Source of the DNA: Candidatus Saganbacteria bacterium
GTDB taxonomy: Bacteria; Margulisbacteria; WOR-1; XYC2-FULL-46-14; WPAF01
Direction: 5' to 3'
Assembly: GCA_009772965.1 (NCBI GenBank)
Contig: WPAF01000007.1
Location: 14,379 to 78,378 of the forward strand
Length of the DNA stretch: 64,000 nt
The notes under the pieces are model-generated. The model had not been told where the DNA came from, searched no databases, and saw nothing but the letters and a program-made list of their open reading frames with translations. The position numbers were made by a program, and so were the translations under genes. Positions 3,765 to 53,059 of this stretch are shown here, piece after piece (the stretch's first letter is position 1; every line of letters starts with the position of its first letter).

Positions 3765-4482
3765 TTATAATCTCCGCAATTATTGCCTTATCTGCTTCAG
3801 TTAAGCTCATCTTTGCAATAAGGTCAGGCCTTCTAAAAAAAGTTCGCGTTAAAGCTTCTTTTTTTCTCCATTGCGCGATTTCTTTATGGTGGCCGGATTT
3901 AAGCACATCGGGGAGGCTAAGGCCGGAAAATTCTTCGGGTCTTGTGTAGCTTGGATAATCAAGCAAGCCGTTATAGTAAGATTCATTAGTTAATGATTCT
4001 TCTTCTTTTACCACGCCGGGAATTTGCCTGACAACAGAATCTATAAGAACCATAGCCGGCAATTCGCCGCCGGTTAAGACATAATCGCCAATAGATATTT
4101 CATCTGTTGCGAGATTTTCCCTGACTCTTTCATCAAACCCTTCATAATGTCCGCAAATGATAATCAGATGTTCTTCTTTTGAAAATTCTATAACTTTTTG
4201 TTGGGTTAACGGTTCTCCTGACGGGCACATAAGAATAACTCTGGCTTTTTTGTTGGGGTTTAAGCTATTGACGGCTTCAAAAATTGGCTCTGGTTTCATG
4301 ACCATGCCTGAGCCTCCGCCGTATGGAGAATCATCAGCTGTTTGATGTTTGTCTTGCGTAAAGTCGCGTATATTTGTTAAGTGCAAAGTAAAAAGGCCTT
4401 TTTCCTGCGCCCTGCTCATGAGGCTTTCGGAAAAAGACCCTTCAAACATTTTTGGAAAAAGAGTCAGGACATCAACACGCAT
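3757..4482 (-). CDS. trmD: tRNA (guanine37-N1)-methyltransferase
   Basis: MRVDVLTLFPKMF at the N-terminus, SPYGGGSGMVMKPEP, and IIICGHYEGFDERV. Confidence 0.9.
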   Translation of the reverse strand: MRVDVLTLFPKMFEGSFSESLMSRAQEKGLFTLHLTNIRDFTQDKHQTADDSPYGGGSGMVMKPEPIFEAVNSLNPNKKARVILMCPSGEPLTQQKVIEFSKEEHLIIICGHYEGFDERVRENLATDEISIGDYVLTGGELPAMVLIDSVVRQIPGVVKEEESLTNESYYNGLLDYPSYTRPEEFSGLSLPDVLKSGHHKEIAQWRKKEALTRTFFRRPDLIAKMSLTEADKAIIAEIING

Positions 4483-21905: not shown

Positions 21906-22586
21906 ATGAAATACTTAATAAGTATACTATTCGTATGTTTAACTATTTCAATAATTAGTAGGCCCGCTATCGGAAGCGAAGATAAGATTATAGATATATT
22001 AAGAAAGGCAGAAAAGGCTTACTCTCAAATTGGAAATTACTGCGCTGTTTTGGTTAAAAAGGAAAGAATTAATGATAAATATATTCTCGAGGAAATTTTG
22101 CTTAAATTCAAAAAACCATTTAAAGTTTACCTGAAATGGATTGGAAAAAACCATAAGGGTAGAGAGATAATATTTGACAAAGATAAAAACAATGGAAATA
22201 TGCTTGTAAGAGAAGGCAGTTTTCTACATTTTCTTACACACTCATTAAATCCCAAAAGCGATATGGCAATGGATGGACAGAGGCATTCAATAGATGAAAT
22301 TGGCATCGGAAACTTGATAACGAAAATTAGCATGGAAGTTAATAAAGCAGCGCAAAATAATGATATCGAATTATCATTTTCTGAAGATAATAACCACTAT
22401 GCTCTTTACGGTCATTTTCTGAATGATGAATATTATTCAAAGAAGTTTCATTTATTTGTAAATAAAGACAATTATATGATTAAACGAGCTGTTTTTTATG
22501 ATTCGAAAGGAATTTTTGAGGATTATACTTTTGATCAATTAGAATTAAACCAAAATTTCAGTGAGAAGGATTTCAGGTTTTATTAA
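21906..22586 (+). CDS. Secreted LolA-like/DUF1571-like lipid-carrier fold protein
   Basis: Signal peptide MKYLISILFVCLTISIISRPAIG; 226 aa. The composition is typical of periplasmic LolA-like proteins. Last gene of the co-directional operon. Confidence 0.45.
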   Translation: MKYLISILFVCLTISIISRPAIGSEDKIIDILRKAEKAYSQIGNYCAVLVKKERINDKYILEEILLKFKKPFKVYLKWIGKNHKGREIIFDKDKNNGNMLVREGSFLHFLTHSLNPKSDMAMDGQRHSIDEIGIGNLITKISMEVNKAAQNNDIELSFSEDNNHYALYGHFLNDEYYSKKFHLFVNKDNYMIKRAVFYDSKGIFEDYTFDQLELNQNFSEKDFRFY

Positions 22587-22857
22587 ATTGGATTTTAGAA
22601 AAGTATGCGGATGAGGGGCAAATATTTTTTAATCCGCATTGGGGGCAAAGCGGCTTTTTAGCCTTGCAGATATTTCGGCCGTGTTCAATTAATAAATACG
22701 CGGCATCTCCCCACATCGGCTTTGGAATTATTTTCATTAAATCCTGCTCGATTTTCTCCGGATTTTTATTTTTTGATAATCCCAGCCTTTGCGACAACCG
22801 GATTACATGCGTATCAACCGTTATGCCTTCTATTTTATTAAAAGCGGTATAAAGCAC
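22573..22857 (-). pseudogene. Displaced 3' fragment of endonuclease III (nth), duplicate of nth residues ~122-204
   Basis: The 94-aa ORF is nearly identical to the C-terminal part of the intact nth at 23870..24517 (LYNAFNKIEGITVDTHVIRLSQRLGLSKNKNPEKIEQDLMKIIPKPMWGDAAYLLIEHGRNICKAKKPLCPQCGLKNICP). Confidence 0.7.
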
Positions 22858-22866
22858 AACTGATGC
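22616..22866. repeat. Direct repeat copy A, ~251 bp and ~97 percent identical to 23918..24169
   Basis: Aligned by eye. Runs gggcaaatattttttaatccgcattggggg ... aaagcacaactgatgc, with about 5-6 mismatches or indels. Confidence 0.85.
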
Positions 22867-23041
22867 TACGATCTTATCCGCTTGGGCATTTCATGGCGGG
22901 CTTTGACCAAAGCGTATTTTTTGTGCTATTACTAATTCTAAAGATCCCAAAAATGAAGGAGCTAAAAAAAATAGCCTCTTTGGAAGAAAGCTGAAAAGAT
23001 AAATTGCATTAATAGGTGCTGAGCATTATAATCATTGTATT

Positions 23042-23242
23042 ATGAAACCTTGGGACGTAGAAGAAACACGAAAAAAACTAAATAAATTATCATCAACCAG
23101 AAGCGTACAGATTTTCTTTGATCTTCAACATGCGGCTTTTAAGATAATTAAAGCGTCATTAAAAGATGAAAATCCGCATCTCTCCGCTGCGGAAATAAAA
23201 ATTAAAATAAATCAGTTAGCTGAATCTCTGGGGAAATTATGA
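23042..23242 (+). CDS. Small helical hypothetical protein, upstream partner of the nucleotidyltransferase (antitoxin-like position)
   Basis: 66 aa. Its stop overlaps the next start (ATGA). Confidence 0.4.
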   Translation: MKPWDVEETRKKLNKLSSTRSVQIFFDLQHAAFKIIKASLKDENPHLSAAEIKIKINQLAESLGKL

Positions 23243-23769
23243 ATTTTGAGAAATTACTATCTGGAATAGAAAAAATATTTAAAAAAAGTAAGATTCCTTA
23301 TATGTTAGTTGGTGGATTTGCTATAGCTTATTGGGGATATCCTCGTCAAAGCTTAGACATTGATATTGTTGTTGATCTCAATCTCAAAAATATCTTGACT
23401 TTTTTATCTTTAGCAAAACAATTAGGATTTAAATTTGATCAGCAAGAAATTCAAATGATACTACCGATTGGTAATCGTTTTGTTATGGAGCTCGGTGATT
23501 TTAGGGCAGATATTTGGCTTCCAAAAACTCAATTTGAAATAAATGCGTTAAAAAATAGGAATAGAAAAAAAGTTTTTGGATATAATTTTTCTATTATTAG
23601 TGCTGAAAATTTAATTCTTTCAAAACTGTTAGCAGGACGGCCGAGAGATTTCGAAGATGCAAAGACTGTTATTTTACGTCGAAAAAACAAGTTAAACAGG
23701 GATAATCTAATGCATCAGGCCTTGGCTCTAAATATTGGCGATCTATTAGATAAATTGTTTGCTGAATAG
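23239..23769 (+). CDS. Minimal nucleotidyltransferase-fold protein
   Basis: VGGFAIAYWGYPRQSLDIDIVV fits the NTase GG-x(n)-DhDh signature; 176 aa. Second gene of a 2-gene cassette between the nth repeats. Confidence 0.55.
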   Translation: MNFEKLLSGIEKIFKKSKIPYMLVGGFAIAYWGYPRQSLDIDIVVDLNLKNILTFLSLAKQLGFKFDQQEIQMILPIGNRFVMELGDFRADIWLPKTQFEINALKNRNRKKVFGYNFSIISAENLILSKLLAGRPRDFEDAKTVILRRKNKLNRDNLMHQALALNIGDLLDKLFAE

Positions 23770-23869
23770 TAAATATACTTTATGGGACTGTTACAAAATG
23801 AGATTTTTTGGAAACCCCACACCTGCCTGCCGGACAGGCAGGGCAGGCGAGGCTTTAGTCTGGGGTGTA

Positions 23870-24517
23870 TTATGCAACAGTCCCATTATAAAACTTATTC
23901 ATGAAAGAATCGTAAAACGGGCAAATATTTTTTAATCCGCATTGGGGGCAAAGCGGTTTTTTAGCCTTGCAGATATTTCGGCCGTGTTCAATTAATAAAT
24001 ACGCGGCATCTCCCCACATCGGCTTTGGGATTATTTTCATTAAATCCTGCTCGATTTTCTCAGGATTTTTATTTTTAGACAATCCCAGCCTTTGCGACAA
24101 CCGGATTACATGCGTATCAACCGTTATGCCTTCTATTTTATTAAAAGCGTTATAAAGCACAACTGATGCGGTTTTTCGTGCAACGCCGGGAAATTTGATT
24201 AATTCTTCCATAGAATCGGGAACTTTGCCATGATATTTTTCAACTATTATTTTTGCGGAATTAATGATGCTTTTTGCCTTGTTCCTGAAAAATCCGGTTG
24301 AGCGGATTTCCTGCTCAAAATCTTTAGCGCTTGCATCGGCATAATCTTTTGCGGTTTTGTATTTTTTAAATAAGGCTTCGGTGACAATGTTTACCCTTTT
24401 ATCCGTGCATTGGGCGGAAAGGATAGTGGCAACCAGCAAGTCGATTGGGGTTTTATAGTTTAGCGCGATTTTCGCGTTTGGATAAAACTTTTTTAAAAGT
24501 TTGAATATTTGGTTCAT
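23870..24517 (-). CDS. nth: Endonuclease III (DNA glycosylase/AP lyase)
   Basis: HhH-GPD motif LIKFPGVARKTASVVL, catalytic Lys region, and the C-terminal [4Fe-4S] loop CPQCGLKNICP. Confidence 0.9.
   Translation of the reverse strand: MNQIFKLLKKFYPNAKIALNYKTPIDLLVATILSAQCTDKRVNIVTEALFKKYKTAKDYADASAKDFEQEIRSTGFFRNKAKSIINSAKIIVEKYHGKVPDSMEELIKFPGVARKTASVVLYNAFNKIEGITVDTHVIRLSQRLGLSKNKNPEKIEQDLMKIIPKPMWGDAAYLLIEHGRNICKAKKPLCPQCGLKNICPFYDSFMNKFYNGTVA
23918..24169. repeat. Direct repeat copy B, inside the intact nth gene
   Basis: See copy A. Confidence 0.85.
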
Positions 24518-48600: not shown

Positions 48601-50496
48601 AATTACCCTGCAAACCTAGCGATGCACTTTGTTGATAAAAACTTTGATGACATTATTAAATACTTGGAAATTAATCATGCCGGAAAGGCATTTATTCAAT
48701 CTTTATTAAAAGGCGAAATATCTCTAAAAGTGTCATATGCCCAGAGCGGCAAAGAGCCAATCAAGGTAAAAATTCAGGTTGTGGGGAGCGATGGAATAAT
48801 TAGGGACATAAACAATGAAGAGTTGAGTGCCCTGCAAGCGATTTATAAAAAATTGTCTCCTACTCAACAGCCAACCCCGGAATATTTAGCGGCATGGTTT
48901 AACGCTTATTCTAAACAAAACTTTCGGACAAAGAGCAAAACAATATGGGGTAAGGCAATTGTTTTAAAAGCTATTAAGCGGGCGAAGAATTACCGAAATG
49001 TACCTAAAAACATACAAACCAAGCATCGACAATTTATTAGAGGATTATATTCAATTTTTAGTTCAAAAAAATTGTCAAGAGCAATTGATTCGGGGAGGAT
49101 CAATGCAATATTTGATGCGGTTTTTGGTTTGTTATTTGGAAAAGTTAATATGAAGGATTTACAAAAATTCTTAAAACTAAACCCAAACAATTTTGACGTT
49201 TGGGCAATTTTAATGATTTATAATCTGGTTAAAAACGAGAAAAATAAAAGAATACAACTTGCATTGATTAACATGGCGACAGGGAGTATGAATCAAACAT
49301 TACAGAAAGCGGGAGGGAGATTTGAATTAAGTATTGAGTTTACAAAATTTGAAGCGTATCAGTTGTTGACTGCGGTATTGCTTTGTCAAGAAGCTGAAAA
49401 AAATATGCCGCCTGTTCCAGCTCCTACTCCTGCGCCTATGCCTAAGGTGTCAAGTCCAGCTCCCGCAGCACCCGTAATGCCAGCTAGGACAGCGCCACCC
49501 ATACCTGCAGAAAAAACTGTACCGGCGGCTCAAGCAAAAGCACTAGTGGATGAAACATGGGGAAATTTTAACCTGTTTGAGAGAGTTGTTGGCAGATTGA
49601 AAACGCAAGAAGCTTTAGATTTAGCTTCCGGCGGAAGAGTTAAAATGGGAGATCAAAATGCGTTGGATGCTTTAGTTTATGGGCAGAGAAGAGAAATTCA
49701 AGCGCTGGTTAGGCCTATTTTGGCATTAACCGCGCAAGGTAAGCCAGTTTCAGAAAAAATGATCCAAGATCTGCAAGCGAAAAAACAACAATTGAATAAT
49801 AGCAGAGAAAAAATTTCAGATGTTTTATCAAATAGATTTGACCAATACTCAAAATTAATCGTTGGGTTAAAAGAGCTATATGTTAGAGTAAAAACTTCGA
49901 ATCCAGAATTGGCAGTACAGCTTAAACAAGCACATGATGAGTATGTTAAACAAGTGAAAAATCCTGAGAGTATAGAAGCTTACAATGAAAAAAGAAAAGC
50001 TCTTGAAAATATTATTAAGAAAGCAAAGATAATTCCCGTTGCAGCGGCTTCCTCGGCATCGCCAACTGTAAAAAAGCCCGCGGTAGCCAAAGCAGCGCTA
50101 AAGCCTGTAGTATCTGGCTCAACACTGAAGATTACGCCAAGTTCTTCAGATGTATCGCCTGCTTCAACGACAGGGCAAGAAAGTTGGCATGCTCGGTTAG
50201 AAAAGCTTGCTAAAGCAAATGAAGAAGTACGGCTAGATTTAGAAGCATATCGAAACCATGAAAGAAAAATCAATGAATTGGACAAACGCATACAAGAAAT
50301 AGAATTGCGATTAAAAACACTTCATGACTTGAAACAAGATTATAAAAATAAGGGAAGAATAACGCCTAAAAGTATTCTTGGAAGAATAGAAAACAATACA
50401 ATAGAAAGAGGCAAGCTTATGCAATCATATCAAACATGGTTTAAAAGCCGCGAAAGACTAAAAAGAAGCCTTGATAGTGTTTTATCAAATCAATAA
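45676..50496 (+). CDS. Very large hypothetical protein (~1606 aa) with an HExxH motif, Pro/Ala-rich linkers and a C-terminal coiled-coil module shared with the downstream 391-aa paralog
   Basis: Continuous ORF. RBS GAGGGAGG before the ATG at 45676 (the track's 45631 start is upstream alternate-frame extension). HEAAH at nt 48298..48312. Pro-rich tracts around 46540-46850 and 49405-49520. The last ~100 aa align with the C-terminus of 51884..53059. Confidence 0.6.
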   Translation: MTTPANNLEQIKSAWNNFFRVNIAKQNTEILNKIVEVLKNNDSKQWIIYVKKDVQGKIQLCKQGDTGAIKIDLHDGLSVAEAKTLGIDITRGINKIAAHGWRLDKEKGIQQGPGAQVIDGNEVVKFDQAIREYASAKGWTFEEAQKAYYSREIQFGRQDLVLQAKNREAAYKTLVEKTKNCKKYDEFIKVIKSEFGIKSEQNPILLNLYNLHELKKIGFKDAEQRAKAAALVIKFASASQTSKQFQEEVLGLPAPIKTRYEGQMALPSIIAWAKAAQEYEQAKEEDSAATIPGDSIPPIEPQADNPPLSMVGKGAPRVPEGQGLKMQPLNRREYVRDLSQQSTNLRIDRQNDASPAAPNSAPKPDPSKPSSTPAAGSRPASPAAAPQLITTNSNAVQKIVECQAPIRQIEVLRKTSEQYHARLKRLKKQIQRAGKNTKKQRRLIQQYNQNVDRYRAINERWRELAAVLENSTKAVFTYIQEIYFNAFMAASPTREAAAKWNAFVRMLESAQVNYREINLFIRLSNPRLSKEDRNLLFNFYAKKDNKLEAAVRQRIITAWRESVDSYNGWHGRNYHISASVFLDIVSQQSGILRNERILGKIFKGKLTEVLTVVGPQEMRRLLGLSKEELFREIDIASKESSSYPIGSSSKILAMKRLGDLHAIAYARGFSLFDYNYQHFIKELPGLENQDYRLVSFFNEVAESHEKTDDAKYRQEFSKYLTSVFERYLKLPVNQYDKRILFLKLLSTLYAMALKIGISKEEFNKIYASAKDKIRPPVSGGQNINTLAELKTRIPISVGSNGLPQEVVAILRATGDYALVAKNLNEIIFTNNIHSGPLGIKPQGLALSAFGIVVIDAVNERGKIRSAWEIAAILVHEAAHVLWFKNVQGLLLSSTPDERNAFLATKNFLDKYLQNNKSIDRNTKQEILRYIALNKYAVMGANYALGYEQNNMQVNLYQQMPVMREGLPKPEDLDLENYPANLAMHFVDKNFDDIIKYLEINHAGKAFIQSLLKGEISLKVSYAQSGKEPIKVKIQVVGSDGIIRDINNEELSALQAIYKKLSPTQQPTPEYLAAWFNAYSKQNFRTKSKTIWGKAIVLKAIKRAKNYRNVPKNIQTKHRQFIRGLYSIFSSKKLSRAIDSGRINAIFDAVFGLLFGKVNMKDLQKFLKLNPNNFDVWAILMIYNLVKNEKNKRIQLALINMATGSMNQTLQKAGGRFELSIEFTKFEAYQLLTAVLLCQEAEKNMPPVPAPTPAPMPKVSSPAPAAPVMPARTAPPIPAEKTVPAAQAKALVDETWGNFNLFERVVGRLKTQEALDLASGGRVKMGDQNALDALVYGQRREIQALVRPILALTAQGKPVSEKMIQDLQAKKQQLNNSREKISDVLSNRFDQYSKLIVGLKELYVRVKTSNPELAVQLKQAHDEYVKQVKNPESIEAYNEKRKALENIIKKAKIIPVAAASSASPTVKKPAVAKAALKPVVSGSTLKITPSSSDVSPASTTGQESWHARLEKLAKANEEVRLDLEAYRNHERKINELDKRIQEIELRLKTLHDLKQDYKNKGRITPKSILGRIENNTIERGKLMQSYQTWFKSRERLKRSLDSVLSNQ

Positions 50497-51883: not shown

Positions 51884-53059
51884 ATGAGCGAACCTAATAA
51901 AATTGAATCCAAGCTAACCCCGGTATATGTGCCCCAAAAGCCCAAAACAACTAAAGAAATTGCAAAAGACTACCAACCAAAGGATGTTGTAGATATTGGG
52001 AACGGCGTAACCATGAAAATCCCAAAAGAAGTCCAGAAAAAAATTGATAAAACAGCAGAAAAAATCCAAGAAAATGAAAGACAAGAAATCGAACGAAGAA
52101 GCGATGTAACGGATATGGTTGCCTATGACACTGCACAAATAAGCTCAAAAGCCGCTAAAGCCCTTAAGGCAACTGAGGATTTTATTAATGACAGGAAGCT
52201 TGTTGCCCGACAAACTACAGAAAGTAAACCTGCCGTAAAAAAAGTAAATTGGAAATGGCAGCCTTTTCTTCTTGGTTCAAAAAAGAAAACCGTCCCGGCC
52301 CCGTCAGCGCCGCCGGTAAAAATTAAAGCCCCGCCAGCTTATTCAACATTTACACTGGAAGCCGGCACAAGGGAACGAGAAACAACTGCTTTTGAAAAAG
52401 AAGAAATTCCAACCACAAAAGATACTAGTGTTGATGGAAAGAAACTTACCACAGCTTTATCAAGGCCAACCAACGCAACAATTCCTGGTGGATTAGACAC
52501 AACTAAAACAGATGATATTACTTCACGAGCCGGGAAATTGGCGGCTAAAAAAGTTCCATCCCCGCCAGCTATTGCTCTACCTCCTCTTGATTCAAAAACT
52601 ATAGCGACGCCAGCTCTAAAACCGGCTCCGAAACCTACACTAGCGCCAAAAGTAATTCAACGCGTTGTTGGAAAAAGAGATCAATATCAGGTGCCTGGAC
52701 AGGTGACAGGATCCCTTCTAGGAGTCGAACAATTGAAAAAAACTTGGGATGAAAAAATATTGGAACTTGCCAGGACAAACGGAGAAGTAAAGCTAGATTT
52801 GGAAGCATATCGTAATAATGTAAAAACAGTCAGCGGATTAAGAACGGCTATAAAAGAAAAAGAAAGAAAATTAGAAAACTTTATTGAACTTCAAAATAGG
52901 CGTGAGCAAGAGGGAAAGCGGCCATCTGATGCAATTGGGAGACGAATCGTCCTCCTGAAAAAAGAAATAGCCCAGCTTGCTCAAAGATATGAGGTTTGGG
53001 TAAGAAGCCAGCGGAAATTAAAAGATGCACTTGATAAAGCTCTGGAGGATGGCAACTAA
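51884..53059 (+). CDS. Hypothetical Lys/Pro/Ala-rich protein (391 aa), paralogous at its C-terminus to the giant protein
   Basis: RBS AGAGGAGG. Its C-terminal TWDEKILELARTNGEVKLDLEAYRNN... aligns with ESWHARLEKLAKANEEVRLDLEAYRNH... of the giant protein along ~100 aa. Confidence 0.5.
   Translation: MSEPNKIESKLTPVYVPQKPKTTKEIAKDYQPKDVVDIGNGVTMKIPKEVQKKIDKTAEKIQENERQEIERRSDVTDMVAYDTAQISSKAAKALKATEDFINDRKLVARQTTESKPAVKKVNWKWQPFLLGSKKKTVPAPSAPPVKIKAPPAYSTFTLEAGTRERETTAFEKEEIPTTKDTSVDGKKLTTALSRPTNATIPGGLDTTKTDDITSRAGKLAAKKVPSPPAIALPPLDSKTIATPALKPAPKPTLAPKVIQRVVGKRDQYQVPGQVTGSLLGVEQLKKTWDEKILELARTNGEVKLDLEAYRNNVKTVSGLRTAIKEKERKLENFIELQNRREQEGKRPSDAIGRRIVLLKKEIAQLAQRYEVWVRSQRKLKDALDKALEDGN

What the first reader, a model, noticed from the sequence alone, without database searches (positions are those of the whole stretch)
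22573..24200. Duplicated 3' end of nth (~250-bp direct repeats, ~97 percent identity) bracketing a 2-gene nucleotidyltransferase cassette
The C-terminal ~83 codons of endonuclease III occur twice. One copy is in the intact gene (23918..24169). The other is a displaced fragment ~1 kb downstream (22616..22866) with about 5-6 nt differences. Between them, on the opposite strand, lie a 66-aa helical protein and a 176-aa minimal NTase (GG...DIDI), coupled by an ATGA overlap, and a GC-rich hairpin (CCTGCCTGCCGGACAGGCAGG at ~23823). This is the footprint of an element that integrated into the 3' end of nth while carrying a replacement 3' end. Alternatively it reflects recombination between nth alleles. 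The cargo looks like a small toxin-antitoxin or defence-type NTase pair. No integrase remains.
Basis: seen in the sequence. Interest (0 to 1): 0.6.

Follow-up and report, generated by a model that had tools for sequence, protein, structure and literature searches.

The report
Toxin-antitoxin cassette with displaced nth end
A small two-gene toxin-antitoxin cassette sits at the end of a DNA-repair gene (nth) in a Saganbacteria genome and is bracketed by two slightly different copies of that gene's end; relatives of the cassette show the same footprint at other housekeeping genes, which points to spread without any integrase.

Summary
A 251-nt direct repeat (22616-22866 and 23919-24169; 6 mismatches, no gaps) brackets 1052 nt that carry a 66-aa gene and a 176-aa nucleotidyltransferase gene joined by an ATGA overlap, plus a strongly folding GC-rich hairpin.

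The NTase models confidently. Its best structural match is the tRNA-modifying toxin MenT1 of M. tuberculosis, whose antitoxin MenA1 is a 68-aa helical protein. The pair is conserved as a pair in other genomes.

Five of the six repeat differences are synonymous third-position changes in the nth frame. Both copies therefore evolved as working nth alleles. Both C-terminal tails beyond the repeat look like genuine nth tails.

Homologous cassettes elsewhere are also bracketed by 32-87-nt copies of a neighbouring host gene end (secA, relA/spoT, rpoC and others). Those differences are again almost all synonymous, and the repeats share no motif.

Best reading: an integrase-free addiction cassette moved by recombination that is homologous in the conserved host gene and illegitimate at the other end, or by single crossover of a circle, which displaced the old gene end. 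This combines two known patterns, "insertion with long target duplication" and "C-terminal displacement". No empty site was found and no function was tested.

The parts
22573..22615 (-). Divergent C-terminal tail (SSAYFSKIQFNKT) and stop codon of the displaced nth fragment. It overlaps the 3' end of the convergent DUF1571 gene by 14 nt.
   Evidence: ORF 22573-22857. The tail scores -2 bits on a profile of 118 nth tails, against a null of -39 +/- 12 (P about 4e-4).
22616..22866 (-). Displaced nth fragment (repeat copy 1). It covers codons 117-199 and carries the Fe-S cysteine cluster, but lacks the N-terminal two-thirds of the HhH-GPD domain.
   Evidence: It differs from the working copy by 5 synonymous changes and 1 non-synonymous change (N123T).
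22867..23041 (+). 175-nt spacer upstream of the cassette. Its left edge (22866|22867) is the inferred illegitimate junction. It contains a perfect TATAAT at 23027-23032, 9 nt before the ATG.
   Evidence: Sequence. No similarity to any fetched locus. GC 35%.
23042..23242 (+). 66-aa helical protein, the putative antitoxin.
   Evidence: Conserved upstream partner with a 4-nt overlap in other genomes. 44-53% identity with 21 invariant positions. Three helices predicted. No Pfam, NCBIfam or PDB match.
23239..23769 (+). 176-aa Pol-beta-fold nucleotidyltransferase, the putative MenT1-like toxin.
   Evidence: AF2 pLDDT 90.5. Foldseek best hits are MenT1 8an4/8an5, TM 0.71-0.75, E 8e-9. PDB profile hit to MenT1 over the GG...S.D.D motif. 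Pfam DUF6036 at 23.3 bits against a cut-off of 23.6.
23782..23887 (.). GC-rich compound hairpin between the convergent NTase and nth genes. Its outer stem overlaps the last nth codons and the stop. It is probably a bidirectional terminator.
   Evidence: The core palindrome recurs in contigs of related bacteria.
23870..23918 (-). Canonical nth C-terminal tail (FYDSFMNKFYNGTVA) and stop codon of the working gene, lying between repeat copy 2 and the cassette.
   Evidence: Homologue tails. Profile score +29 bits; 0 of 11,039 random peptides reach it.
23919..24169 (-). Repeat copy 2, inside the intact nth (codons 117-199).
23870..24517 (-). Intact endonuclease III gene (215 aa).
   Evidence: TIGR01083 259 bits. 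Pfam HhH-GPD. Upstream synteny RibD-DUF1858-Grx-Fdx-nth is conserved in Saganbacteria.

Best explanation
The 1052 nt between the repeats carry a MenAT1-like toxin-antitoxin module. The 176-aa NTase is the toxin. By analogy with MenT1 it would add nucleotides to tRNA 3' ends and block aminoacylation. The 66-aa helical protein encoded just upstream, and translationally coupled to it, is the antitoxin.

The module has no recombinase. It reached, or was retained at, the nth locus through recombination between two nth haplotypes, one carrying the cassette next to nth and one not. One end of the exchange was homologous, inside nth. The other end was an illegitimate join at 22866|22867. This is either homology-facilitated illegitimate recombination of a linear fragment or single crossover of a circularised fragment.

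The result is a working nth whose last 99 codons lie next to the cassette, plus the other allele's 3' end (codons 117-199, tail and stop) displaced to the far side. The 251-nt repeat is a by-product of that event, not a recombinase site.

The same process has happened repeatedly in this cassette family at other conserved genes.

Shown: the anatomy, the fold, the conserved pairing, the synonymous bias and the recurrence of the footprint. Inferred: toxin activity, the direction of transfer and the recombination pathway.
For: Repeat anatomy.

Synonymous bias in the window: 5 of 6 differences are third-position synonymous, P(<=1 non-synonymous) = 0.002. The one replacement, N123T, is in the fragment at a position that is N in the homologues shown.

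Tails: both resemble nth C-termini, at +29 and -2 bits against a null of -39 +/- 12.

Fold and motifs: MenT1 is the best structural match. A profile hit covers the catalytic GG...S38-x-D40-x-D42 region. Family invariants include D91, K129, R134, D137 and D140.

Conserved pairing: the small ORF plus NTase, with a 4-nt overlap, lies at unrelated loci in other genomes.

Family footprint: direct repeats made of the neighbouring host gene end bracket the pair in L013 (relA/spoT end, 79 nt), L102/L103 (secA end, 67 nt), L066 (rpoC end, 53 nt), L054 (5' start of the downstream gene), L084 and L014. At protein level the same holds in L028 and L031.

Statistics: 6 of 41 independent loci have such a repeat, against 2 of 153 shifted control positions and 0 inverted repeats (Fisher P = 0.0013).

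Family-wide synonymous bias: pooled Sd 63, Nd 19, pN/pS about 0.09. Relic copies keep the reading frame and the stop codon.

No shared core: no 8-mer is shared by three or more of the repeats.

No mobility genes: none within 6 kb.

Variable boundary: the nth 3' end is a synteny breakpoint, and in another Saganbacteria genome a different TA pair sits just downstream of it.

Published mechanisms: HFIR and circularisation with single crossover (PMC3240628); displaced 3' ends in T6SS and Rhs loci (PMC5361080); long target duplications around R-M systems (PMC2853133); MenAT1 (PMC10435456).
Against: No cassette-free haplotype of this locus was found, so the direction of transfer and the ancestral state are inferred.

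The two nth copies are 97.6% identical in the repeat but unalignable in the 16-codon tails. That requires at least one earlier recombination breakpoint at the repeat/tail boundary.

In several family members the repeat copies share exact runs of only 8-23 nt. A crossover inside the repeat is therefore unlikely there, and the homologous anchor must lie elsewhere in the host gene. This was not demonstrated.

Pairs found by tblastx are biased towards low pN. The blastn-found pairs alone give Sd 21.5, Nd 3.5.

Only about 15-25% of family loci show repeats.

The window NTase is just below the Pfam DUF6036 threshold, and the 66-aa protein has no detectable similarity to MenA1.

No experiment supports toxicity.
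Confidence: 0.6

Rival explanations
1. [quoted passage not shown] The cassette inserted inside nth and 251 nt of target were copied on both sides, as described for restriction-modification genes. The copies later diverged in place.
For: The structure matches the published class: repeats longer than 30 bp, often overlapping gene 3' ends, and no mobility genes (PMC2853133). Some family members have identical repeats (L102 67/67; L014 53/53), as expected just after a duplication.
Against: Decay in place should give mostly non-synonymous changes in the dead copy. Observed are 5 synonymous and 1 non-synonymous (P about 0.02 even if the working copy contributes only synonymous changes, by my own calculation). 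A simple duplication of codons 117-199 would leave the working gene fused to insert sequence, yet its tail is a canonical nth tail. Relic copies in other loci differ from the working copies at near-saturated synonymous sites while the peptide is conserved.
Confidence: 0.15
2. Scar of a failed curing event. DNA from a cassette-free relative, with DUF1571 and nth adjacent, recombined into a cassette-bearing chromosome. Clean replacement would remove the addiction module and kill the cell. Only an aberrant event survived, homologous on the DUF1571 side and illegitimate at 22866|22867, which added the incoming nth end without deleting the cassette.
For: It yields the same final structure as the best explanation. 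The displaced fragment is contiguous with the DUF1571 block, and its tail overlaps that gene's end as a native arrangement would. It would also explain why such repeats are enriched around addiction modules, both R-M (PMC2853133) and this TA family.
Against: Nothing here distinguishes which haplotype was the recipient. Post-segregational killing by this module is untested. Relics from very divergent orthologues (pS 0.75-0.98) would require uptake of distant DNA.
Confidence: 0.15
3. Site-specific integrative element. A small satellite element whose attachment site contains the nth 3' end was integrated by an integrase supplied in trans, as genomic islands integrate into tRNA genes.
For: Direct repeats made of a gene's 3' end, with the working gene restored by element-borne sequence, are the classical signature (discussed in PMC2853133).
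Against: There is no integrase or transposase within 6 kb. The repeats around related cassettes range from 32 to 251 nt, are made of unrelated host genes (secA, relA, rpoC, a gene's 5' start) and share no 8-mer. In several loci the NTase C-terminus is fused into the repeat, as expected of a random junction rather than a defined element end.
Confidence: 0.07
4. Assembly artefact. Two nth strain variants in a metagenome were stitched into one contig.
For: The window comes from a metagenome-assembled genome, and the two copies differ as strain alleles would.
Against: An independent assembly gives the same 12.5 kb at 99.98% identity. Contig L002 runs from inside copy 1, through the insert and copy 2, into unique nth sequence. 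The k=31 contigs end exactly k-1 bases from the first copy-specific base, as expected of a true repeat. The unique junction sequences on both sides are each covered.
Confidence: 0.03

Closest known systems
MenAT1 (Rv0078A/Rv0078B) toxin-antitoxin system of Mycobacterium tuberculosis, within the MenT/AbiEii (DUF1814-like) NTase toxins
   Same: The toxin is a Pol-beta-fold NTase of about 180-196 aa and is the best structural match here (TM 0.71-0.75). The GG...[ST]-x-D-x-D active-site region is shared. The partner is a very short helical protein (68 aa in MenA1, 66 aa here) encoded next to the toxin (PMC10435456).
   Different: Sequence identity is only 17-21%. The window protein does not reach the Pfam AbiEii or DUF6036 thresholds. 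The small protein shows no detectable similarity to MenA1. Activity on tRNA and neutralisation are untested.
Insertion with long target duplication of restriction-modification gene complexes (Nobusato et al. 2000; Furuta et al. 2010, PMC2853133)
   Same: An addiction-type gene pair is bracketed by long direct repeats of variable length, made of host sequence that often overlaps a gene's 3' end. There are no mobility genes.
   Different: The cargo is a toxin-antitoxin pair rather than R-M genes. The repeat copies here are different functional alleles or orthologues (synonymous differences), not a fresh duplication. No empty site is available for this locus.
C-terminal displacement in Rhs, CDI and T6SS effector-immunity loci, explained by homology-facilitated illegitimate recombination (Jackson 2009 and Kirchberger 2017, as cited in PMC5361080)
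   Same: The conserved 5' part of a gene serves as a homologous anchor. A new 3' end plus linked cargo is installed, and the old 3' end is pushed downstream as an orphan. Serial events build arrays, as seen in L031.
   Different: The anchor gene here is a housekeeping gene (nth, secA, relA, rpoC), not a polymorphic toxin. The cargo is an independent TA module rather than the gene's own toxic tip and its immunity gene.
Genomic islands and satellites that integrate into the 3' end of tRNA or protein genes using an integrase
   Same: The working gene is restored by sequence that travels with the insert, and a displaced partial copy marks the far end.
   Different: There is no integrase, no conserved attachment core, variable repeat length and many different target genes.

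Membership tests
MenT/AbiEii-type NTase toxins | Pol-beta NTase fold with an hG[GS] motif and a D-x-D catalytic motif | tested here: met
   G25 G26 and D40-I-D42 are invariant in 18 homologues. The AF2 model has pLDDT 90.5. Top Foldseek hits are MenT1, then ANT(2'')-Ia, LnuA and TM1012.
MenT/AbiEii-type NTase toxins | Match to the family HMM (Pfam PF08843 AbiEii/DUF1814 or the related PF19502 DUF6036) above the curated threshold | tested here: inconclusive
   The window protein scores 23.3 bits on DUF6036 against a cut-off of 23.6, and PADLOC AbiEii gives E 0.007. More distant members of the same homologous set pass PF08843, PF19502 and PF09970. Precomputed PF19502 hits cover most close homologues.
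MenT/AbiEii-type NTase toxins | C-terminal helix motif K-L-x-A-x-x-R...R-D-x-x-D and a conserved [ST] before the D-x-D (the auto-phosphorylation site in MenT1). The motif definition is from memory and from PMC10435456. | tested here: met
   K129-L-L-A-G-R134-P-R-D137-F-E-D140, with K129, R134, D137 and D140 invariant. S38 is invariant and aligns with the Thr of MenT1 'FTRDVD'.
MenT/AbiEii-type NTase toxins | Growth inhibition by nucleotide addition to tRNA 3' ends, neutralised by the cognate partner | not testable with these tools
   Requires expression and tRNA 3'-end sequencing.
MenAT1 subtype | Antitoxin homologous to MenA1 | tested here: not met
   A profile of four small-protein homologues finds nothing in the PDB at E <= 10. 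Foldseek with the 3-helix model has no hit with E < 1. Only size, helicity and adjacency are shared.
Type II/IV-style TA operon | Two small genes conserved as a pair, translationally coupled and found at unrelated genomic positions | tested here: met
   ATGA overlap in the window. A 63-66-aa gene plus a 174-177-aa gene with a 4-nt overlap lies next to nadB-like, relA, tsaD/gatC and other genes.
Insertion with long target duplication (R-M class of Furuta et al. 2010) | Insert under 20 kb flanked by direct repeats over 30 bp, with no mobility genes | tested here: met
   251-nt repeats and a 1052-nt insert. No integrase or transposase among the genes within 6 kb.
Insertion with long target duplication (R-M class of Furuta et al. 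2010) | The repeat sequence is present once at the same place in a related genome that lacks the insert | tested here: inconclusive
   The closest other nth proteins are at most 78% identical. All contigs encoding the identical DUF1571 or ferredoxin proteins belong to the same population and either carry the cassette or end at the repeat.
C-terminal displacement by one-sided homologous recombination | The displaced 3' fragment derives from a different functional allele than the working copy | tested here: met
   Window: 5 synonymous and 1 non-synonymous difference. Family pooled: Sd 63, Nd 19, with frames and stops kept.
Integrase-driven integrative element | A recombinase gene and a conserved attachment core | tested here: not met
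   No recombinase nearby. The repeats of seven loci share no 8-mer in three or more loci.
Integron gene cassette | An attC site with conserved inverse-core and core sites at the cassette end, and an array next to intI | tested here: not met
   The hairpin occurs only once in the 64-kb window. The sequences flanking related cassettes are host gene ends, not a shared attC. No intI lies near.

The most novel reading that the evidence does not exclude
A family of MenT1-like toxin-antitoxin cassettes spreads between bacteria, including distantly related ones, with no recombinase of its own. It stays physically linked to the end of a conserved housekeeping gene. That gene end serves as a portable homology arm for integration next to the orthologue in a new host, and each transfer leaves a displaced, still codon-intact copy of the other allele's end. 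In the mirror-image version, the repeats are scars of failed attempts to cure the cassette by recombination with cassette-free DNA. Either way, addiction modules would generate a recognisable and datable footprint at core genes, and would import foreign 3' ends into essential genes.
Probability: 0.35. Interest if true: 0.7.

Novelty: new variant of a known kind. Interest (0 to 1): 0.55.

Why it matters
How small chromosomal toxin-antitoxin modules move without transposases or integrases is poorly documented. This locus and its relatives give a concrete sequence signature: host-gene-end repeats whose differences are synonymous. The signature links TA mobility to two phenomena described for other selfish or antagonistic genes, namely long target duplications around restriction-modification systems and C-terminal displacement in Rhs and T6SS loci.

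If the pattern is general, it offers three things:
- a way to detect and date horizontal arrivals of addiction modules in uncultured genomes;
- a route by which core genes such as nth, secA, relA and rpoC acquire foreign 3' ends;
- a testable prediction that addiction selects for aberrant, one-sided recombinants.

It also extends the MenT1-like NTase toxins to Margulisbacteria/Saganbacteria and to other uncultured bacteria in environmental metagenomes.

Tried and rejected
- Rfam. A scan of the whole window found only one tRNA. The hairpin matches no known RNA family.
- Family libraries. NCBIfam and PADLOC gave nothing significant for either cassette protein. Pfam gave only a sub-threshold DUF6036 hit.
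- MNT/HEPN reading (NTase as antitoxin). Rejected, because the partner is a 66-aa non-HEPN protein and the fold match is to the MenT1 toxin.
- Antibiotic NTase reading (ANT(2'')/Lnu). These are weaker fold matches and do not explain the conserved, coupled small partner.
- Integron attC reading of the hairpin. Rejected.
- Empty-site search. I looked through nth homologues, through the exact DUF1571 and ferredoxin proteins, and in the GTDB and JGI collections. No close cassette-free relative turned up.
- Relatives' nth loci. L010, L012, L108 and L110 have no nth duplication.
- Origin of the 175-nt spacer and the hairpin. blastn and tblastx against all fetched loci found nothing for the spacer. 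For the hairpin only the short palindrome core matched.
- Control hits in the repeat test. The strongest one proved to be a DGR template/variable repeat pair around a bAvd gene.
- L055 repeat. It reflects paralogous flanking genes, not a target copy.
- L052 repeat. It is low-complexity sequence.
- MenA1 similarity of the small protein. Not detected.
- DUF6036 in the literature. No paper in the searched library mentions it.
Full report
WHAT IS THERE

The window comes from a Candidatus Saganbacteria (Margulisbacteria/WOR-1) metagenome-assembled genome, according to the source names of the identical proteins.

A 251-nt direct repeat lies at 22616-22866 and 23919-24169. It has 6 mismatches and no gaps, and similarity stops abruptly at both ends. 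Copy 2 is codons 117-199 of an intact endonuclease III gene (23870-24517, minus strand, 215 aa; TIGR01083 259 bits). Copy 1 is a fragment that lacks the N-terminal two-thirds of the HhH-GPD domain.

Between the copies lie 1052 nt at 33% GC, against 38.9% for the window. In order they are:
- a 175-nt spacer;
- a 66-aa ORF (23042-23242);
- a 176-aa ORF (23239-23769), which overlaps the first by ATGA;
- a compound GC-rich hairpin (about 23782-23887; z = -4.2 and -6.2);
- the last 16 codons of the working nth gene, whose stop lies in the outer stem of the hairpin.

The arrangement is reproduced in an independent 80.7-kb assembly at 99.98% identity. Shorter contigs either span it or break exactly where a k=31 graph must break at a true repeat. 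It is not an assembly artefact.

THE CARGO

The 176-aa protein has the minimal Pol-beta NTase signature (G25 G26 ... S38-L-D40-I-D42). It also has an invariant D91 and a C-terminal K129-L-L-A-G-R134-P-R-D137-F-E-D140 helix.

Pfam places it just under the DUF6036 threshold (23.3 against 23.6 bits). More distant members of the same homologous set pass the AbiEii, DUF6036 and DUF2204 models.

With an 18-sequence alignment, AlphaFold gives pLDDT 90.5. Foldseek against the PDB puts the M. tuberculosis toxin MenT1, alone and in the MenAT1 complex, first (TM 0.71-0.75, E 8e-9). Antibiotic NTases and TM1012 follow. A sequence profile also finds MenT1 over the catalytic region.

MenT1 adds CMP to tRNA 3' ends, and MenA1, a 68-aa helical protein, blocks it (PMC10435456).

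The 66-aa protein here is predicted as three helices. It has no detectable similarity to MenA1 or to anything else. It is nevertheless conserved as the upstream, 4-nt-overlapping partner of the NTase at unrelated positions in other genomes.

I therefore read the pair as a MenAT1-like toxin-antitoxin module. The fold and the architecture are shown. The activity is inferred.

THE TWO nth COPIES ARE TWO FUNCTIONAL ALLELES

In the nth frame, five of the six differences are third-position synonymous changes. The sixth (N123T) is in the fragment, at a position that is N in the homologues shown. Under unconstrained change 79% of substitutions would be non-synonymous, so P(<=1 of 6) = 0.002. The copies did not diverge by decay after an in-situ duplication. 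Each was part of a working nth until recently.

Beyond the repeat, the working gene ends in FYDSFMNKFYNGTVA. This matches the family consensus PSYxxFMKKFY at +29 bits, a score that none of 11,039 random peptides from the window reaches. The fragment ends in SSAYFSKIQFNKT and a stop that overlaps the convergent DUF1571 gene. It scores -2 bits, still far above the null of -39 +/- 12 (P about 4e-4).

Both therefore look like real nth termini of different ancestry. One is attached to the cassette side and the other to the DUF1571 side.

Across Saganbacteria the block RibD-DUF1858-Grx-Fdx-nth is conserved, but whatever follows nth varies. In one genome a different TA pair (MNT-HepT) sits there. The nth 3' end is thus a recurrent boundary of rearrangement.

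THE FOOTPRINT IS A FAMILY TRAIT

I fetched about 100 loci that encode relatives of the NTase and compared the sequence upstream of the pair with the sequence downstream. In many independent loci the pair is tightly bracketed by direct repeats made of the neighbouring host gene:
- L102/L103: the last 66 nt of secA;
- L013: the relA/spoT end plus the spacer and start of holB;
- L066: the rpoC end;
- L054: the first 17 codons of the downstream gene;
- L084 and L014: gene ends with terminator hairpins;
- L028 and L031: convergent gene ends, detected at protein level.

L031 has three copies of one gene end. They separate the NTase pair from a second small cassette.

The unique DNA between the repeats is 719-785 nt in five of these loci, which is essentially the two ORFs alone. 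In several loci the NTase C-terminus is fused into the repeat, as expected of a random junction.

Among 41 independent loci with adequate flanks, 6 have a direct repeat of at least 30 nt in this geometry and none has an inverted one. Shifted control positions give 2 of 153, one of which is a DGR repeat pair (Fisher P = 0.0013).

The repeats of different loci share no 8-mer.

Read in the host gene's frame, the relic copies keep the frame and the stop codon, and they differ from the working copies almost only at synonymous sites. Pooled counts are Sd 63 and Nd 19, with pS 0.44 and pN 0.038. For the pairs found by nucleotide search alone the counts are Sd 21.5 and Nd 3.5. In L103 the relic secA end carries three synonymous changes and a different stop codon, while in the sister contig L102 it is identical to the working copy.

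HOW IT MOST LIKELY HAPPENED

The common denominator is recombination between a haplotype that carries the cassette next to a conserved gene and a haplotype of the same gene that does not. One junction is homologous, inside the gene. The other is illegitimate.

In the window the illegitimate junction is 22866|22867. The outcome is: nth (5' part), repeat copy 2, canonical tail, hairpin, cassette, spacer, then repeat copy 1, the other tail and DUF1571.

Two documented routes give this structure. The first is homology-facilitated illegitimate recombination of a linear fragment. The second is circularisation followed by a single crossover (PMC3240628). HFIR has been invoked for the displaced 3' ends and orphan immunity genes of T6SS and Rhs loci (PMC5361080).

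The end product is also what Kobayashi's group described as 'insertion with long target duplication' around restriction-modification genes. For that pattern no mechanism was established (PMC2853133).

I cannot tell which haplotype was the recipient. The cassette may have arrived with its own nth end. Alternatively, cassette-free DNA may have recombined in without managing to delete the addiction module. The abrupt change from 97.6% identity to unalignable tails needs one earlier breakpoint at that boundary.

Several alternatives are disfavoured:
- A site-specific integrase, because of the variable, unrelated repeats and the absence of any recombinase within 6 kb.
- A plain in-situ duplication, because of the synonymous bias and the canonical tail.
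- An assembly artefact, because of the independent assemblies.

THE HAIRPIN

The hairpin sits between two convergent genes and overlaps the nth stop. It is most simply a bidirectional terminator. Its palindromic core CCTGCCTGCCGG(A)CAGGCAGG recurs in unrelated contigs of related bacteria. It matches no Rfam family.

LIMITS

- No empty site was found, and the closest other nth is 78% identical.
- No function was tested.
- Repeats were detected in only a minority of family loci.
- The protein-level detections are biased towards conserved peptides.
- In the most divergent pairs the exact matches (8-23 nt) are too short for a crossover inside the repeat, so the homologous anchor elsewhere in the gene is assumed, not shown.

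VERDICT

The locus itself is a new member of known kinds: a MenT-type TA module, and a long-repeat-bracketed addiction cassette. The family-wide pattern is the part worth following up, and I found no report of it in the papers I searched. That pattern is host-gene-end repeats whose copies are different functional alleles or orthologues.

Noticed in passing
L004/L006 7550-7633 and 8681-8764 (WOR-1 contigs fetched for the NTase homologue P0015): An 84-nt direct repeat flanks a bAvd gene, and one copy is rich in AAC. This looks like a diversity-generating retroelement variable/template repeat pair at the 3' end of a 195-aa gene. It was the only strong hit among the control positions of the repeat test.
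   Followed up: partly
window 23822-23842; L004/L009 3491-3509; L032 167-189; L033 214-239; L092 about 4926: The GC-rich palindrome CCTGCCTGCCGG(A)CAGGCAGG of the hairpin recurs, up to 19/19 identical, in unrelated contigs of related bacteria. It may be a clade-wide REP-like or terminator motif.
   Followed up: partly
L010 6074-6773 (Saganbacteria GCA_016223245.1): In another Saganbacteria genome with the same Grx-Fdx-nth synteny, a different TA pair (MNT/Polbeta plus HepT) sits about 420 nt downstream of nth, with no nth duplication. The nth 3' flank seems to be a landing spot for TA modules.
   Followed up: partly
L031 3733-3765, 4500-4532, 5329-5361: Three copies of the last 10 codons and stop of a convergent 356-aa gene (R[SK]HIKEPIAI*) separate the NTase pair from a 126-aa 23S-rRNA-IVP-like (four-helix bundle) gene. 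This is a small array built by serial insertions at one gene end.
   Followed up: partly
L102 versus L103, 4539-4605: In two variants of the same secA-end locus, the relic repeat is identical to the working copy in one. In the other it carries three synonymous changes plus TAG to TGA. This suggests either gene conversion between repeat copies or two alleles in the population.
   Followed up: partly
L014 versus L032: The NTases are only 55% identical, yet both lie upstream of an epimerase gene that is 84% identical between the two contigs. Different cassette variants may have been exchanged at one conserved site.
   Followed up: no
window 23027-23041; L013 about 3798-3812; L102 about 3818-3831: A perfect TATAAT lies 8-9 nt before the start codon of the small gene in several cassettes, with no Shine-Dalgarno sequence, which suggests leaderless transcripts. 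In L013 this TATAAT lies inside the repeat and is shared with the upstream region of holB.
   Followed up: no
window 50206-50279 and 52766-52839: A 74-nt direct repeat at 74% identity with 2.56-kb spacing, probably from paralogous genes.
   Followed up: no
L002 (window 22788-24383) and L116 (ends at window about 24221): Contigs from a k=139 assembly break at positions that the 251-nt repeat cannot explain, because its longest exact run is 71 nt. This hints at haplotype heterogeneity at this locus in the sampled population.
   Followed up: no
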